A DNA stretch of 63,689 nt, counting the filler, from Reclinomonas americana ATCC 50394 (lineage: Eukaryota): NCBI GenBank assembly GCA_048213135.1. It is 4 parts of 2 records of this genome, joined end to end, with 100 filler letters (N's around TTAATTAATTAA, not from the genome) between each part and the next. Parts side by side here need not be neighbours in the genome. Positions count along the whole stretch, not along the records: positions 1 to 23,362 come from PS015066.1; 3 more parts are not named here. The stretch is one strand, 5' to 3'. Shown piece after piece: positions 8,134 through 23,362 of the stretch. Under the pieces are notes generated by a model, which searched no databases, was not told where the DNA came from, and worked only from the letters and a program-made list of their open reading frames with translations. The position numbers and the translations under genes are program-made. Numbering within the stretch: the first letter of the stretch is position 1; each line of letters begins with the position of its first letter.

Positions 8134-9032
8134 NNNNNNNNNNNNNNNNNNNNTTGATGGTATGTGCGCTTCTTGATTGCTGCTGTCGCCGCCAAGTAAT
8201 AATGGTGTTGGCCATGGAAGACTGCAGACGCGCACGTGGCCTGGTGCGTACGTGTGTGTTCTGCATCTGCGTTGAGGAGTAAGTTGGTGAGACTTGGAGA
8301 TTGACTAACTCAGTTCTGTGTGTGATCTGAGCACAGGCGTGTTGGCAAGTGACTGGCGTGCGAAGACACGTGGTTCCGTGCCACACAATGCATGCATAAG
8401 ATAATGCACCGACCGACTGTGAGTGAGATTGAAGGCGCGCGGCATTGATTGTGATTGGGTGAGAGGAGACGAGCCTCACGACGCAGCTGCCTCGTCCATC
8501 GCTGTGCGCGTGTTACTGTACTGGTCGCTCCTCTCATATCCCTTGTGTCTCCCCTTCTTCGTCGTACCATCATGACGTGCACCTCGTCAGCTTCGCTGTG
8601 GGCCGATCCAAGGAGGCTTGAGGTTTCGAAGACCCATGGATTCTCGGGTGTGCCGTGGCATCAGCACACCAGGGCCACAACTGCGTATCCAAGCAGCCCG
8701 ACATGCCAGTCCTCGTTGAGAGATAGTGCAGATCAGTTGAAAGAGAGTGTCGCTGGTCAGCAGCTCGGTGCAGTGGAGCGCCACCTTGTGTCGCCAGCAT
8801 GTCCATTCTGCCGATTTCTCATCAACGAGTCCCATGTTGGTCTTCGAAAGCCCACACGCATCAAAGAAGCCACATCGTTCACACTGCCGGTTGCTGTTGA
8901 TTGCTGGCTGCAGCCTGGCGAGAGATGGACGACGTCTCAGACCAAGGCGGGAGAAGAAAGGCGGGAACCAGCTGCAGTGACAATCCCGAGCGAGCAAAAT
9001 CACACACACTCACTCACACCACGGAGTAGAGA

Positions 9033-10197
9033 ATGACAACCAAGGTGTGAATGTATGCGCACTTTTGCGTGGTTGGTGTCTGTGTGTTCATTGGTGTGCT
9101 TGTGCATGTGTGTGGTTGTCGTTTGTGTCGCTGTGCATGTGCGTCTCACCCGCGGGTGATCGACACAGATCATTCAGAGTCTCGCTTCTTCGGTGCGGTC
9201 AGTCGCTGTCACTCCCGACGGCAAGCACATTGTCGGTGGGTGCTTGGACAGCTCCGTTTGAGTGTGGTCTTTGGCGAGTGGAGAAGAAGTGCGACGGCTG
9301 GGGGGACACGCTAGCGAGGTGTTGTCTGTCGCCGTCACTCCCGATGGCCAGCAGATAGTGAGTGGAAGTGGAGACCGTACCGTACGTGTCTGGTCGATGG
9401 CAAGTGGAGAAGAAGTGCGACGGTTTGAGGGACACACCAATGTGGTGTTGCCTGTCGCCGTCGCCTTCGATGGCCAGCACGTCGTCAGCGGCGGCTATGA
9501 CAAGACAGTGCGAGTGTGGTCGCTGGAGAGTGGCGAGGAGGTGCGACGGTTAGAGGGACACGCTATTTCGGTGTGGTCTGTGGCAGTCACCCCCGATGGT
9601 AAGCACGTTGTGAGTGGGGGTGGAGACAAGACAGTACGAGTGTGGTTGCTGGCGAGCGGGGAGGAGGTGCGACGGTTGGAAGGACACACTGGATGGGTGT
9701 ATTGTGTCACCGTCACACCCGATGGTCAACACGTCGTGAGTGGCAGTTGGGACAACACGGTGAGAGTGTGGTCACTGATGAGTGGAGACCAAGTGCGACG
9801 GTTGGACGGACACTATGTTGCGGTGTGGTCTGTGGCCGTCACTCCAGATGGTCGGCATATCGTGAGTGGGAGCGGAGACAGCACCGTGCGGGTATGGTCT
9901 CTGGAGAGTGGCGAGGAGGTGCGTCGGTTGGAGGGACACACTGACTGGGTGTCGTCTGTCGCTGTTACTCCCGATGGTCAGCACATTGTGAGTGCGGATG
10001 GCCAAGACAAGACGATCCGAGTGTGGTGCACGCCGCGTGGCCTCGCTCGTCTCGAACTCGACACCGCGCGGTCGGCCATGCGAGCTGTGCAGGAGATGCA
10101 GGAGATGCAGGAGGAACAAGATTCACGATGTCTTCCCGAGATGGTTCTGCGCTGTTTTATCGTCGAAGATGCCGAGGTCGTCTTTTTTCGATGCTGA
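9033..10197 (+). pseudogene. WD40 array copy 1 (7 repeats), premature TGA in repeat 1
   Basis: Micro-exon MTTK 9033-9044, intron 9045-9168, exon 9169-10197. TGA at 9259-9261 where paralogs have CGA/CGT (Arg). Tail ...LPEMVLRCFIVEDAEVVFFRC*. Confidence 0.7.
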
Positions 10198-20583: not shown

Positions 20584-22649
20584 GAGAGGGAAGGTGGCTG
20601 CTGGTTATTGTGAGTTGTTTTCCATGTCTTGCGAGGAAGAGTGGGTGATCATGCGGGATGCAGGTGGGGGAAGAGAGGACGACAGAGGAGGAGAGTGAGG
20701 TCGTTGTTGATGGTGAAGAATTGTTCTCCCGTGCTTGTTCCCCTTTCATGTGAATGATAGTCTGCGGGCGTGAAGCATGTCTCCCTCTGTATACGTGTCT
20801 TCTTTTCACCTTCATTTTGTGTGCAAGCGCGACGGATCACTTGGGAATCTATTGCGTTTTTTTGTCTCGTTGTGATGTCTGTTGTGCGTGCATCTTTCGT
20901 CGCGACGTCGCTGATATACGTGCCTCATGAGAGCGAGTCACCGTTGTCTGTTTCCCTCGCGTCTTGTTTTGCGCACCTCCTTGGCACCGCCATACTCTGC
21001 TTCCCATTGTGCCTGTGCGCCGTGCACATTCTCCTTTCGTTCTGAAGAATGCCTGTCTTTCAGCTCTCTTTTTCCTGCCTCCTGCAGAGTCTATCTCTTT
21101 CTCCGCCATCTCCCTGCCTTTGTGCGCTCATCTGATTCCCCAGTAATCCGCCCCTTCTTGCCTCACACGCTCGAGGTCGAGCTGCGGGTCCGCTCATCAT
21201 GCACCGACTGTCATCGCATTGGGCAGTCCATCATGGTGAGCTTCCCGATGCCGAAGTGTGTGAGGTGGCGTACCTGCATACTGACTCGTCTCCTTCTCTC
21301 CCTTGCAGGATGGTTGTGTGAGCGTCCGCTTGGCTTGCTTCTTGACAAACGCGTGTTGGTATCAGGTGCTGATCGGTGTGTTCGCCACGCGCGTACGTGC
21401 ACGTGTGACAGAGCAGATTTCTCTCCCCGTCCTCCATTCTTTGCTCACAGCACATGTACACCGGCATGCAGAGACCATGGAAAACATGTCGTGGCGATGA
21501 CAGGCGTGATGTGCATTGCCCGTTGTCGACCATCTCCTCACTCACTCGGCTCCCCACTTGCATCCCACCATGCACGCAGCAGTTGTGTGGCCCTGTTCTT
21601 CGTGATCTCTCTTTCCTCCTTCCCCTCCCACTCACCTCATTCATGCAGGCCGTGCGTGTCATGGAGAGCGTGGCTGGGTGGGTGTACACATGCGTACCGT
21701 GATGTGCGATGGATGGCCTGGTCGGTGGATCGTTTTCAGTCCCGGCTGGCATGTCGGAGCAGATCGATGATGTGCGTGCCTTGGTTGTTGCTGTCACTGT
21801 CGAGTGATGATGCTAGTGGCCGTGAGAGACTGCACACACGTGCGAGGCCTGCAACACATGGTGCGTGCGTGTTCTGCGTCTGCGTTGAGGAGCAAGTTGG
21901 CGAGACCTGAAGATTGACTCAATTCTGTGTGTGATCTGAACACAGGCGTGCTGGCCATGGCAAGTGACTGGCACGCATGCAGCTTGACGATACGTGGTTC
22001 CGTGCCTCACAGTACATGCGTGAGACGATTCAACCGACCGACTGTGAGTGTGATTGAAAGCACGAGGCATTGTGACTTGAGTAAGAGGAGACGAGTCTCA
22101 CAACACAGCTACCTCTTCCATCGCTGAGCAGCTGTGCTGATCGCTCCTCTTCTGTCTCTTGTGGCTTTTGTTCTTCCTTGTACCATCATCAACCTCGCTG
22201 TGGGCCGATCCAAGGAGGTGTGACGTTCCGATGACTCGGTGCTCAGTGGATTCTCGCGATCGGGTGTGCTGTGACATCAGCACACCACCAGGGCCACAGC
22301 TGCGTATCCAAGCAGACCGACATTCCAGTCCTCGTTGAGAGAAAATGCAGGTCAGTCGAAAGAGAGTGTCGCTGGACATGCACGGTGCAGTGGAGCGCCA
22401 CCTTGTGTCGCCACCACCCTGCTTGTCCATTTCTGCCGATTTCTCATCGACCTGTCCCATGTCGGTCTTCAAAAGCCCACATGCATCAACGAAGCCACAT
22501 CGTTCTCACACTACCGCGTGCTGTGTGGGATGCTGGCTGCAGCCTGGCGAGAGATGGACGACGTCTCAGAGCAAGGCGGGAGAAGAAAGGCGGGAAACGG
22601 TGATAATCCAGAGCGCAGCGAGCAAATCACGCACACACACACACGGAGA

Positions 22650-23362
22650 ATGACAACAAAGGTGTGAATGTGTGCGCACTTTTGCGTGGTTGGTGTCTGT
22701 GTGTTCATTGGTGTGCTTGTGCATGTGCGTGTCTTCGAATGTCGCTGCTGCGTGTGCGTCTCACCCGCGGGTGATCGGCACAGATCATTCAGAGTCACGC
22801 TTCCTCAGTGAGGTCCGTCGCCGTTACTCCCGATGGCAAGCACATTGTTGGTGGATGCATGGACAGCACCGTTCGAGTGTGGTCTCTGGCGAGTGGCAAG
22901 GAGGTGCGACGGCTGGAGGGACACGCTGGCGGGGTGTATTGCGTCGCCGTCACCCCTGATAATCAGCACATCGTGAGTGGAGGTGGAGACAACACCCTAC
23001 GTGTGTGGTTGCTGGAGAGTGGGATGGAGGTGCGACGGCTGAGGGGACACACTGGATGGGTGTATTGTGTCGCCGTCACCCCCGATGGTCAGTACATCGT
23101 GAGTGGCGGTGGAGACAGCACCATCCGGGTGTGGTCGCTGGCGAGTGGCGAGGAAGTGCGACGATTGGAGGTGCACACTAACTGGGTGTGCTCTATCGCC
23201 ATCACCCCCGATGGTAAGCACGTAGTGAGCGGCGGTGAAGCCAACGCAATGCGGGTGTGGTTGCTGGCGAGTGGGGAAGAGGTGCGACGGTTGGAAGGGC
23301 ACACTGGCTTGGTGCTCTTTGTCGCTGTCACTCCCGATGGTCAGTACATCGTGAGTGGGAGC
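22650..23362 (+). CDS. WD40 array copy 5 (at least 5 repeats, 3' truncated by contig end)
   Basis: MTTK 22650-22661 spliced to 22784; frame open into the spacer. Confidence 0.85.

What the first reader, a model, noticed from the sequence alone, without database searches (positions are those of the whole stretch)
8154..23362. Tandem array of stand-alone, internally near-identical WD40 genes: candidate diversified recognition system in a protist
Seen: at least 5 head-to-tail units, each a 4-codon micro-exon (MTTK) plus one exon of 42-aa repeats that are far more similar to each other than in housekeeping WD40 proteins (xSGEEVRRLEGHxxxVxSVAVTPDGQHIVSGxxDxTVRVWSL). Repeat number differs (7, gapped, 5, 7, at least 5) and the ~50-aa tail is constant. 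Established: such high-internal-conservation WD40 arrays are the ligand-sensing part of fungal HNWD/HET-E NLRs and of some bacterial STAND proteins. Here there is no NACHT/NB-ARC or effector domain. Inference: a sensor-only or adaptor family under birth-and-death evolution, possibly for virus, endosymbiont or non-self recognition.
Basis: partly seen in the sequence, partly recalled or inferred. Interest (0 to 1): 0.8.

Follow-up and report, generated by a model that had tools for sequence, protein, structure and literature searches.

The report
Tandem stand-alone WD40 propeller gene family
A real cluster of five diverged copies of a small gene for a seven-bladed WD40 propeller protein with a unique conserved tail, probably a family of adaptor proteins in a jakobid-like protist, but with no evidence yet that it is an immune system.

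Summary
Five head-to-tail units (about 3.0-4.0 kb) each carry an ATG micro-exon (MTTK), a 122-136 nt GT..AG intron and one WD40 exon with a constant tail. Spacers are only 80-89% identical, so this is not an assembly duplicate. "Near-identical" is overstated. Blades average 70% amino-acid and 75% nucleotide identity, with dS about 0.69. They group by position across genes, not within genes. The fungal HIC criterion of 85% or more and concerted evolution are therefore not met. Nonsynonymous change concentrates on the positions I map to the HNWD top-face sites (omega about 1-1.8 against 0.20 elsewhere, not significantly above 1). The tail motif is under purifying selection (omega 0.16). The tail also occurs in a Reclinomonas americana EST product and in a 24%-identical full-length stand-alone propeller. 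Unit 1 has a nonsense codon, and unit 3 has five blades and models as an open arc. No NACHT or effector domain lies in the array. Best reading: a lineage-restricted adaptor family with a variable binding face and a constant docking tail, evolving by birth and death. An immune role is untested.

The parts
8154..9032 (+). Spacer remnant of a preceding unit (unit 0), directly after the N run 8134-8153
   Evidence: 84-89% identical to the 3' parts of the other spacers. blastn with spacer I4 hits 8248-9017.
9033..9044 (+). U1 micro-exon ATG ACA ACC AAG (MTTK)
9045..9168 (+). U1 predicted intron, 124 nt, GT..AG
9169..10197 (+). U1 exon 2: 7 blades plus tail (10033-10194). In-frame TGA at 9259-9261, so a likely pseudogene or nonsense allele.
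   Evidence: Pfam WD40 on 9262-10194.
10198..12363 (+). Spacer 1, with a 161-bp internal sub-repeat at 11284-11577
12364..12375 (+). U2 micro-exon
12376..12511 (+). U2 predicted intron, 136 nt
12512..13190 (+). U2 exon 2, interrupted by N 12708-12948. The N-terminal 65 codons and the last 27 codons of the final blade plus the tail (13032-13187) are readable. Blade number is unknown.
13191..16398 (+). Spacer 2, containing the N run 14559-15519
16399..16410 (+). U3 micro-exon
16411..16534 (+). U3 predicted intron, 124 nt
16535..17314 (+). U3 exon 2: open frame, 5 blades plus tail (17150-17311). The model is an open five-blade arc.
17315..19412 (+). Spacer 3
19304..19359 (+). Conserved block about 55-110 nt upstream of the ATG (shown here for U4, present in all 5 units). 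Possible promoter or 5'UTR element.
   Evidence: Alignment A4, columns 42-97 almost invariant. The function is inferred.
19413..19424 (+). U4 micro-exon
19425..19548 (+). U4 predicted intron, 124 nt
19549..20583 (+). U4 exon 2: open frame, 7 blades plus tail (20413-20580). A 1-nt deletion alters the last residues after the motif. This is the best candidate for a functional copy.
   Evidence: AF2 pLDDT 90.7. Foldseek 5yzv TMt 0.96.
20584..22649 (+). Spacer 4
22650..22661 (+). U5 micro-exon
22662..22783 (+). U5 predicted intron, 122 nt
22784..23362 (+). U5 exon 2: first 4 blades and part of a fifth, cut by the N run 23363-23406

Best explanation
This is a genuine, lineage-restricted tandem family of small stand-alone proteins. 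Each has a seven-bladed WD40 beta-propeller closed by an N-terminal strand that starts in a 4-codon micro-exon. An acidic helix and a conserved C-terminal peptide (D-S/R-R-C-L-P-E-L/M-V/I-L-R-C-F-I/L-V-E) follow, and the peptide does not pack on the propeller in the model.

Shown:
- The copies are old paralogs that evolve by birth and death, with occasional gene conversion.
- The propeller scaffold and the tail are under purifying selection.
- The ligand-facing positions of the blades change at about the neutral rate and differ between paralogs.

Inferred mechanism: each paralog binds a different ligand on its top face and uses the constant tail to dock to one shared partner, as a receptor/adaptor family does. 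The partner and the ligands are unknown. At least one copy (U1) is dead and one (U3) is probably impaired.
For: Real paralogs. Spacers are 80-89% identical. Positional orthologous blades differ by dS 0.29-0.41 with omega 0.11-0.53.

Gene model. The start codon, donor, branch-like site and acceptor are conserved in 5 of 5 units, while the middle of the intron varies in length by non-multiples of 3.

Fold.
- The AF2 model of U4 has pLDDT 90.7 and pTM 0.85. It shows 27 strands plus a short N-terminal strand, a helix at 293-312, and residues 323-344 below pLDDT 50.
- Foldseek gives PkwA 5yzv at TMt 0.96 and rmsd 1.0 A.

Selection.
- Eight orthologous blade pairs give omega 1.39 at my positions 15, 17, 33, 35 and 1.85 at the 7-position set, against 0.20 at the other 35 positions.
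- Only 45 of 20000 random 4-position sets reach the same nonsynonymous count.
- 15 of 16 internal blades have distinct 4-residue signatures.
- The tail has omega 0.30 and its 21-codon motif 0.16.

Family beyond the window. A tail profile searched against 1.84 billion representatives gave 3 hits.
- P0121 is named by EukProt as a Reclinomonas americana EST product (EC795383.1), so it is a transcribed relative. It is 67% identical over the last blade plus tail.
- P0123 (381 aa) is collinear with U4 from the first blade to the tail at 24% identity and has no other domain.

Single GT..AG introns of this size, in genes that are mostly intronless, are reported for the jakobid Andalucia godoyi (PMC7050145, passages).
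Against: - No RNA evidence exists for this locus (none listed).
- None of the three fully assembled copies is canonical. U1 has a nonsense codon, U3 lacks two blades, and U4 has a terminal frameshift.
- Omega at the top-face sites is not significantly above 1 (p = 0.68), so relaxed constraint explains them as well as diversifying selection does.
- My mapping of the HNWD positions onto this repeat rests on spacing and on my recall of the HET-E repeat.
- The tail has no Pfam, PDB or Atlas match, so its role as a docking peptide is inference only.
- GC3 of the WD40 exons (0.62-0.67) is lower than in four of the five neighbouring ORFs measured (0.72-0.81; the fifth, an M36 piece, is 0.67).
Confidence: 0.5

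Rival explanations
1. One reading: a NOD-less, sensor-only arm of an NLR-like non-self, virus or endosymbiont recognition system. The propellers are diversified receptors that signal through a separately encoded hub.
For: The variable positions coincide with those I map to the selected HNWD sites (PMC2873952; PMC12222747). Paralogs differ in blade number, 5 against 7. The genes are tandemly duplicated with turnover. The closest sequence relatives include bacterial multidomain WD40 proteins, among them one named TIR/WD (P0027).
Against: - Identity between blades is 70%, not 85% or more. 0 of 26 within-gene pairs reach 85%.
- Blades group by position, not by gene.
- dS among blades is 0.69.
- Omega is not above 1.
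- No NACHT, NB-ARC or effector domain lies in the array.
- There are no expression or challenge data.
Confidence: 0.12
2. The tail is a degenerate F-box-like or BC-box-like peptide, and the family are substrate receptors of a cullin-type ubiquitin ligase. This is a specific form of the adaptor reading.
For: By my recall of the F-box consensus, LPELVLRCFIVED resembles its first helix (LPxELLxxIFxxLD). The AF2 model of U3 puts a low-confidence helix on this stretch (236-245). A variable recognition domain joined to a constant docking peptide is the logic of such receptor families, which is established knowledge that I am recalling.
Against: Pfam gave no F-box or SOCS-box match for any of the 3 tails, even at E up to 10. 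The PDB profile search found nothing better than E 0.72. Only about 20-25 residues follow the LP, about half an F-box. In known F-box/WD40 proteins the F-box is N-terminal.
Confidence: 0.12
3. A decaying array. The copies in this window are pseudogenes or on the way to being lost, and any function lies with other family members elsewhere in the genome.
For: U1 has a nonsense codon. U3 is an open five-blade arc. U4 has a terminal frameshift. GC3 is lower than in most neighbouring ORFs measured. No RNA holder was listed, which is not evidence either way.
Against: Omega is 0.20 at scaffold positions and 0.16 in the tail motif. U3 and U4 keep open frames of 259 and 344 codons. Start and splice signals are intact in 5 of 5 units. 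In P0121 and P0123 the residues after the motif also vary, so the U4 change may be tolerated.
Confidence: 0.15
4. Ordinary duplicated scaffold subunits of a conserved cellular complex. The propellers would be generic WD40 proteins with no diversified recognition.
For: WD40 propellers are mostly scaffolds, which is established knowledge. The fold is closest to PkwA, WDR5 and LIS1-type propellers.
Against: No protein covering the tail was found among the 189-602 aa candidates of the 5.8-billion-sequence collection. Only 3 of 1.84 billion representatives match the tail. Top-face residues are not conserved between paralogs. The closest full-length hits are bacterial or fungal, at 61% identity or less, and lack the tail.
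Confidence: 0.08
5. Assembly artefact: one or two loci duplicated by the assembler.
For: This is a gappy draft. N runs flank the array and interrupt it.
Against: Units differ by 11-20% in spacers, with many indels, and by dS 0.3-0.4 in coding sequence. They have different blade numbers and private lesions.
Confidence: 0.03

Closest known systems
WD40 sensor domains of the fungal HNWD NLRs (HET-E, HET-D, HET-R of Podospora anserina)
   Same: The repeats are 42 aa long and much more alike than ordinary WD40 repeats. Variability is concentrated on the residues after GH and around the Asp of the B-C turn. I map these to the selected HNWD codons 7, 9, 25, 27 and to the set 10, 11, 12, 14, 30, 32, 39. 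Blade number differs between paralogs.
   Different: Identity is 70% here, against 80-100% or 85% and above in HNWD repeats. There is no concerted evolution. dS among blades is 0.69. Omega is not significantly above 1. There is no HET or NACHT part. The proteins have 5-7 blades and a single propeller, with a unique C-terminal tail.
Highly repetitive bacterial WD40 propellers and designs derived from them (PDB 2ymu 'highly repetitive propeller structure'; PkwA 5yzv; WRAP-T, Tako8)
   Same: These are the best sequence and fold matches. 2ymu gives E 6.7e-182, and 5yzv gives TMt 0.96 at rmsd 1.0 A and 41% identity. The repeats are consensus-like: SVAVTPDG..VSGS.D.TVRVW.L.SG.EVRRL.GH.
   Different: The window's genes are eukaryote-style, with an intron and 2-kb spacers. 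They are stand-alone and carry a tail that is absent from all 55 prokaryotic loci found, whose best identity is 47%.
P0123 (381 aa, unnamed assembly) and P0121 (Reclinomonas americana EST product in EukProt)
   Same: Both have the same C-terminal motif RCLPEM(V/I)LRCF(I/L)VE after a propeller. P0123 is collinear with U4 over the whole length. These are members of the same family.
   Different: The blades of P0123 are only 24% identical to those of U4 and match the Pfam WD40 repeat model only below its cut-off (18.2 bits against 27). P0121 is a fragment.
Gcp1-3, the Pex7-related WD40 proteins that co-occur with the mitochondrial T2SS in jakobids and heteroloboseans (PMC8134430)
   Same: They are stand-alone WD40 proteins restricted to a few protist lineages, including jakobids (passages).
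   Different: They are described as Pex7-like, some with a PTS1 signal. Nothing in the passages mentions a CLPE..LRCF tail or near-repetitive blades. Their sequences are in supplements I could not see, so this was not tested.
F-box/WD40 and SOCS-box/WD40 substrate receptors (recalled)
   Same: The logic is the same: a variable propeller plus a short constant docking element, often in expanded, fast-turnover families.
   Different: No F-box or SOCS-box match was found. The element here is C-terminal and only about 20 residues long.

Membership tests
WD40 repeat beta-propeller (Pfam PF00400) | Repeats match the WD40 profile above the gathering score | tested here: met
   U4 scores 255 bits with 7 stretches, U3 182.5 bits with 5, and U1 (9262-10194) 229.7 bits with 6. 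The cut-off is 27.
WD40 repeat beta-propeller (Pfam PF00400) | Closed seven-bladed propeller fold | tested here: met
   The AF2 model of U4 has pLDDT 90.7 and pTM 0.85. Foldseek gives 5yzv at TMt 0.96 and rmsd 1.0 A. This is a prediction, not a solved structure. U3 models as five blades of a seven-fold ring.
High-internal-conservation (HIC) WD40 repeats of fungal NLRs | 85% or more amino-acid identity between repeats over at least 100 aa (Dyrka 2014), or 80-100% within a gene (Ament-Velasquez 2025) | tested here: not met
   The mean is 70%. Within-gene maxima are 0.74-0.83. 3 of 120 pairs reach 85%, and all three are between positional orthologs of different units.
High-internal-conservation (HIC) WD40 repeats of fungal NLRs | Concerted evolution: repeats cluster by gene or genome rather than as orthologs | tested here: not met
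   In the blade tree, U1_bN pairs with U4_bN for N = 2-5 (UFboot 87-94), and blades 6 and 7 form positional clades that also hold U3_b4 and U3_b5 (94-98). U3_b2 and U3_b3 pair with U5_b2 and U5_b3. One weak clade (80/67) joining b2 and b3 of U3/U5 hints at an old intragenic exchange.
High-internal-conservation (HIC) WD40 repeats of fungal NLRs | Positive diversifying selection on top-face codons | tested here: inconclusive
   Omega is 1.39 for 4 sites and 1.85 for 7 sites, with small counts (Sd 3.0 and 6.2). Against the overall dS it is about 0.9-1.0, and the binomial p is 0.68.
High-internal-conservation (HIC) WD40 repeats of fungal NLRs | Repeat-number polymorphism between alleles | not testable with these tools
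   Only one assembly is available. Paralogs differ (5 against 7 blades), but that is not allelic polymorphism.
NLR / STAND proteins | Central NACHT or NB-ARC NTPase domain in the same protein | tested here: not met
   The Pfam rows shown for the exons are all beta-propeller/WD40 families (25 of 46-57 matching families shown). 0 of 21 spacer ORFs match anything. The relative P0123 has none.
F-box or SOCS-box substrate receptors | Match to the F-box or SOCS-box profile | tested here: not met
   hmmscan of 3 tails at E up to 10 gave only GM130_C at E 0.21 for one of them.
Gcp1-3 (Pex7-like WD40 of the miT2SS-associated set) | Orthology to Gcp1-3 or Pex7 | not tested
Propeller + CLPE(L/M)(V/I)LRCF tail family (defined here) | Stand-alone propeller of about 260-380 aa ending in a helix plus the RCLPE..LRCF.VE motif within about 25 residues of the C-terminus | tested here: met
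   The tails of U1-U4 were aligned. P0121 gives E 3.4e-18 and P0123 E 3.2e-4 against the tail profile. U4 and P0123 are collinear.

The most novel reading that the evidence does not exclude
The family is a modular recognition repertoire without a built-in NOD. Fast-changing propeller faces act as receptors for foreign or variable ligands, and the invariant C-terminal peptide plugs every paralog into one shared effector or ubiquitin-ligase hub. That would be a split, trans-acting counterpart of NLR sensors in a deep-branching protist. The blades descend from one amplified blade (dS about 0.7), so the family may once have evolved like the fungal HIC repeats and then frozen.
Probability: 0.12. 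Interest if true: 0.8.

Novelty: new variant of a known kind. Interest (0 to 1): 0.4.

Why it matters
If the reading is right, a jakobid-like protist has a small gene family that combines a consensus-like WD40 propeller with a previously undescribed, strongly conserved C-terminal peptide. The peptide is found in only 3 of 1.84 billion representative proteins. The family gives a clean natural case of a variable binding face joined to a constant docking tail. It is also a comparison point for how repeat-based receptors arise outside fungi, plants and animals. As it stands, this is a well-defined orphan family, not a demonstrated immune system.

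Tried and rejected
- **RNA evidence.** The look-up of sequencing runs on 15520-23362 listed no run, and no RNA holder was listed.
- **Own genome.** None is held for this window, so paralogs could not be counted genome-wide.
- **Earlier notes of this scan.** Nothing by place or by sequence.
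- **Tail-only search of the 90%-clustered collection.** Only proteins of 189-602 aa were searched. 90 candidates shared words with the query and none reached E 0.01.
- **P0123 as a query.** It found only itself.
- **Tail profile in other collections.** JGI metagenome contigs gave 436 pattern matches and IMG/VR gave 38. None was confirmed by tblastn.
- **Tail against Pfam, the ESM Atlas and PDB sequences.** No usable match.
- **Prokaryotic genome scan with U4.** 55 loci were found, with best identity 47%. I saw no specific donor lineage and dropped the horizontal-transfer idea.
- **Rfam on the whole window.** 0 matches.
- **Hidden exons in the spacers.** 0 of 21 ORFs of 94-331 aa on both strands have a Pfam match.
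- **Alternative start for exon 2.** The only nearby ATG, inside the intron end, is out of frame. This is read directly from the sequence.
- **TGA as a sense codon.** Rejected, because U1-U4 all terminate at TGA.
- **Homodimer prediction of U4 (complex prediction).** The verdict was 'no answer' with score 0.00. It is not evidence either way.
- **Sliding identity profile of the spacers.** The script stopped on a NaN after 11462. Only the first part was seen and it is not used.
- An empty script.
- **Rows left out of the blade statistics.** These were the first blades (34-35 aa), the three 43-aa last blades and the blades cut by N runs. U3_b2 was trimmed of its 2-residue insertion.

Full report
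**What is there.**
The window is a gappy draft: 13 N runs, and GC about 0.55-0.58 across the array. Between the N runs at 8134-8153 and 23363-23406 lie five head-to-tail units on the + strand.

Each unit starts with ATGAC(A)AC(A/C)AAG|GTGTGAATG, at 9033, 12364, 16399, 19413 and 22650. After 122-136 nt comes ...TCTCAC...CAG|ATCATTCAGAGT, which opens the only long frame. The 12-nt exon is followed at once by an in-frame TGA. The middle of the intervening stretch varies in length by non-multiples of three, while its two ends, the ATG context and a block about 55-110 nt upstream are almost invariant in all five units. Splicing gives MTTK-IIQS....

No other in-frame ATG is available. The nearby ATG in the intron end is out of frame (read). 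The micro-exon model is therefore the only one that yields a start codon. It rests on signals alone, because no sequencing run could be listed and no genome is held for this window.

**The proteins.**
Exon 2 is a run of 42-aa WD40 repeats (Pfam PF00400: 7 stretches in U4, 5 in U3). A tail of about 55 aa follows.
- U1 (9169-10197) has 7 blades but an in-frame TGA at 9259-9261, where the other copies have CGA.
- U2 is broken by N 12708-12948.
- U3 (16535-17314) is open with 5 blades.
- U4 (19549-20583) is open with 7 blades. A 1-nt deletion changes the last residues after the conserved motif.
- U5 is cut by the N run at 23363 after four and a half blades.

The AF2 model of U4 is a confident seven-bladed propeller (pLDDT 90.7, pTM 0.85). 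It has a short N-terminal strand, a helix at 293-312 and a low-confidence end at 323-344 that contains the conserved motif. The closest solved folds are PkwA (5yzv, TMt 0.96, rmsd 1.0 A), designed WRAP-T propellers and 2ymu.

The N-terminal MTTKIIQSL aligns by eye with the strand-D part of the repeat (EEVRRLEGH). The micro-exon would therefore supply the start of the closing strand. This is inference.

The U3 model (pLDDT 89.2) superposes on five consecutive blades of seven-bladed propellers (WDR5: rmsd 1.7 A over 209 columns). Its best hit is 6r60, an assembly of two five-bladed fragments. I read it as an open arc that could only close by oligomerising.

**Not an artefact.**
The 2-kb spacers are 80-89% identical, with many indels. 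Positional orthologous blades differ by dS 0.29-0.41. The units also have private lesions. tblastn finds no further copy in the window.

**How alike are the blades?**
Sixteen complete internal blades give 120 pairs with mean amino-acid identity 70% (52-100%) and nucleotide identity 75%. Within genes the means are 65-75% and the maxima 74-83%. That is far above the 10-20% that Paoletti 2007 quotes for other WD-repeat proteins (PMC1805685, passages). It is below the HIC definitions: 85% or more over at least 100 aa (Dyrka 2014, PMC4986451, passages), or 80-100% within a gene (Ament-Velasquez 2025, PMC12222747, passages). Only 3 of 120 pairs reach 85%, and all three are between positional orthologs of different units.

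Synonymous divergence among blades is large (dS 0.69, omega 0.29). In a maximum-likelihood tree of 19 blades, U1_bN pairs with U4_bN for N = 2-5 (support 87-94). Blades 6 and 7 form positional clades that also hold U3_b4 and U3_b5 (94-98). U3_b2 and U3_b3 pair with U5_b2 and U5_b3. [quoted passage not shown]

The seven-blade architecture therefore predates the gene duplications. U3 lost two blades afterwards: its b4 and b5 match b6 and b7 of U1 and U4.

Two tracts stand out. U3_b2 and U5_b2 are identical over 126 nt, and U1_b1 and U4_b1 show no synonymous difference. Both sit among neighbours at dS 0.3-0.4, which points to gene conversion between units.

**Where the change is.**
Entropy peaks at positions 13, 14, 15 and 17 (after GH) and 33 and 35 (either side of the Asp of the B-C turn).

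Chevanne 2010 (PMC2873952, passages) gives the selected HNWD codons as the pairs 7, 9 and 25, 27, at the top surface of the propeller. Ament-Velasquez 2025 uses 10, 11, 12, 14, 30, 32 and 39. By spacing, and by my recall of the HET-E repeat, these map to my 15, 17, 33, 35 and to my 13, 14, 15, 17, 33, 35, 42. The mapping is inference.

Over eight orthologous blade pairs:

| Site set | omega | Nonsynonymous (Nd/N) | Synonymous (Sd/S) |
|---|---|---|---|
| 4 sites | 1.39 | 18.0/78.7 | 3.0/17.3 |
| 7 sites | 1.85 | 31.8/126.5 | 6.2/41.5 |
| Other 35 sites | 0.20 | 39.0/624.0 | 57.0/216.0 |

Only 45 of 20000 random 4-site sets reach the same nonsynonymous count. Against the overall dS, however, the 4 sites are not above neutrality (binomial p = 0.68). 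An earlier 6-site version gave 1.50 against 0.21.

The ligand-facing surface therefore changes freely between paralogs while the scaffold is held. Diversifying selection and relaxed constraint cannot be told apart. Fifteen of 16 internal blades have distinct 4-residue signatures.

**The tail.**
The other three tails are 77-81% identical to that of U4, with 34 invariant columns. Omega is 0.30 overall and 0.16 for the 21 codons around DSRCLPELVLRCFIVEDAEVV.

The tail has no Pfam match at E up to 10 beyond a chance-level GM130_C hit. It has no Atlas hit and no PDB match better than E 0.72.

A profile of the four tails was searched by HMMER against 1.84 billion representatives and found three proteins.
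- P0121 (E 3.4e-18) is named by EukProt as a product of the Reclinomonas americana EST EC795383.1. It is 67% identical to the last blade plus tail of U4. A relative is therefore transcribed in a jakobid.
- P0123 (381 aa, E 3.2e-4) aligns with U4 from the first blade to the tail at 24% identity. It has weak propeller matches and no other domain.
- P0122 is a weak repetitive match that I do not count.

Because that library is clustered at 50% identity, tail-bearing proteins may hide behind tail-less WD40 representatives. Three is therefore a lower bound. The 90%-clustered collection gave no tail match among proteins of 189-602 aa, and P0123 is a singleton there. Metagenome and viral contig scans found nothing. 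In all relatives the protein ends 10-20 residues after the motif, which supports the stop codon in the window.

**Context.**
Nothing in the array besides the WD40 exons looks coding: 0 of 21 spacer ORFs have a Pfam match and Rfam gives nothing.

The best whole-protein relatives are bacterial and fungal WD40 proteins at 61% identity or less, none covering the tail (2666 of 8000 scored candidates at E 0.001 or better, 120 listed). The 55 prokaryotic loci reach 47% at most. They share the consensus-like repeat.

Neighbouring genes are an M36+PA peptidase, a very large NHL/fn3 protein and a urea transporter.

The named jakobid relative and the intron style fit a jakobid or related protist. In Andalucia godoyi, 12% of surveyed genes have introns. 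All are GT..AG, their mean length is 151 bp, and intron-bearing genes mostly have one (PMC7050145, passages). This supports 'protist'. I did not try to identify the record.

**Interpretation.**
Shown:
- This is a real tandem family of stand-alone propellers.
- The scaffold and the tail are under purifying selection.
- The top face varies freely between paralogs.
- The family evolves by birth and death with gene conversion.
- It extends beyond the window.

Inferred: the propeller face binds paralog-specific ligands and the constant tail docks to a common partner.

The F-box-like look of LPELVLRCF is my recollection of the F-box consensus, and it failed the profile test. The NLR analogy fails on identity, concerted evolution and domain content, although the distribution of variable sites is the same. 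The Pex7-like Gcp1-3 WD40 proteins of jakobids (PMC8134430, passages) could not be compared, because their sequences are in supplements I could not see.

All blades coalesce at dS of about 0.7, while P0123 shares only 24% identity. The propeller of this lineage was therefore probably rebuilt by amplification of one blade some time before the gene duplications. That would be an old, now frozen, HIC-like episode. This is inference.

**Verdict.**
This is a new orphan variant of the WD40 propeller theme, of moderate interest.

Noticed in passing
window 23465-26205 (+): Directly right of the array lies an M36 (fungalysin) metallopeptidase with a PA domain. It is spread over three reading frames, so it has introns or frameshifts. 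The nearest Atlas clusters are bacterial M36+PA proteins.
   Followed up: partly
window 34907-50575 (+): A 3579-aa uninterrupted ORF (39069-49808) has NHL repeats, fn3 and purple-acid-phosphatase N-terminal domains, in a stretch with GC of about 0.63-0.65. Further NHL-matching ORFs lie at 34907-35986, 36300-38195 and 49394-50575.
   Followed up: partly
window 59447-61105 (+): An ORF with a urea transporter domain (E 9.6e-68) is followed by ankyrin repeats and cut by an N run.
   Followed up: no
window 19304-19359 and 19425-19480 (same blocks in all 5 units): A block of about 56 nt lying 55-110 nt upstream of each ATG, and the first 55 nt or so of each intron, are almost invariant across the five units. 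They are more conserved than the coding sequence. They may be promoter or regulatory elements.
   Followed up: no
window 10195-10215, 13188-13208, 17312-17332, 20575-20590: A strong donor-like GGTGAGT heptamer lies 5 nt after the stop codon in U1-U3. In U4 the 1-nt deletion lets the frame read into it. A 3'UTR intron or an alternative C-terminal exon cannot be excluded.
   Followed up: no
window 16643-16768 vs 22889-23014; 9169-9273 vs 19549-19653: A 126-nt tract is 100% identical between U3 and U5. A 105-nt tract between U1 and U4 has no synonymous difference. Both lie among neighbouring blades at dS 0.3-0.4, which suggests gene-conversion tracts between non-adjacent units.
   Followed up: partly
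window 11284-11577 and 8042-8133: A 161-bp sub-repeat (1.8 copies) lies inside spacer 1, and the same motif seems to be duplicated in spacer 2 next to the 961-N gap. A (TC)45 microsatellite abuts the left N run.
   Followed up: no
window 6963-8054 (-): A 363-aa ORF left of the array has high GC3 (0.81) and no Pfam match.
   Followed up: no
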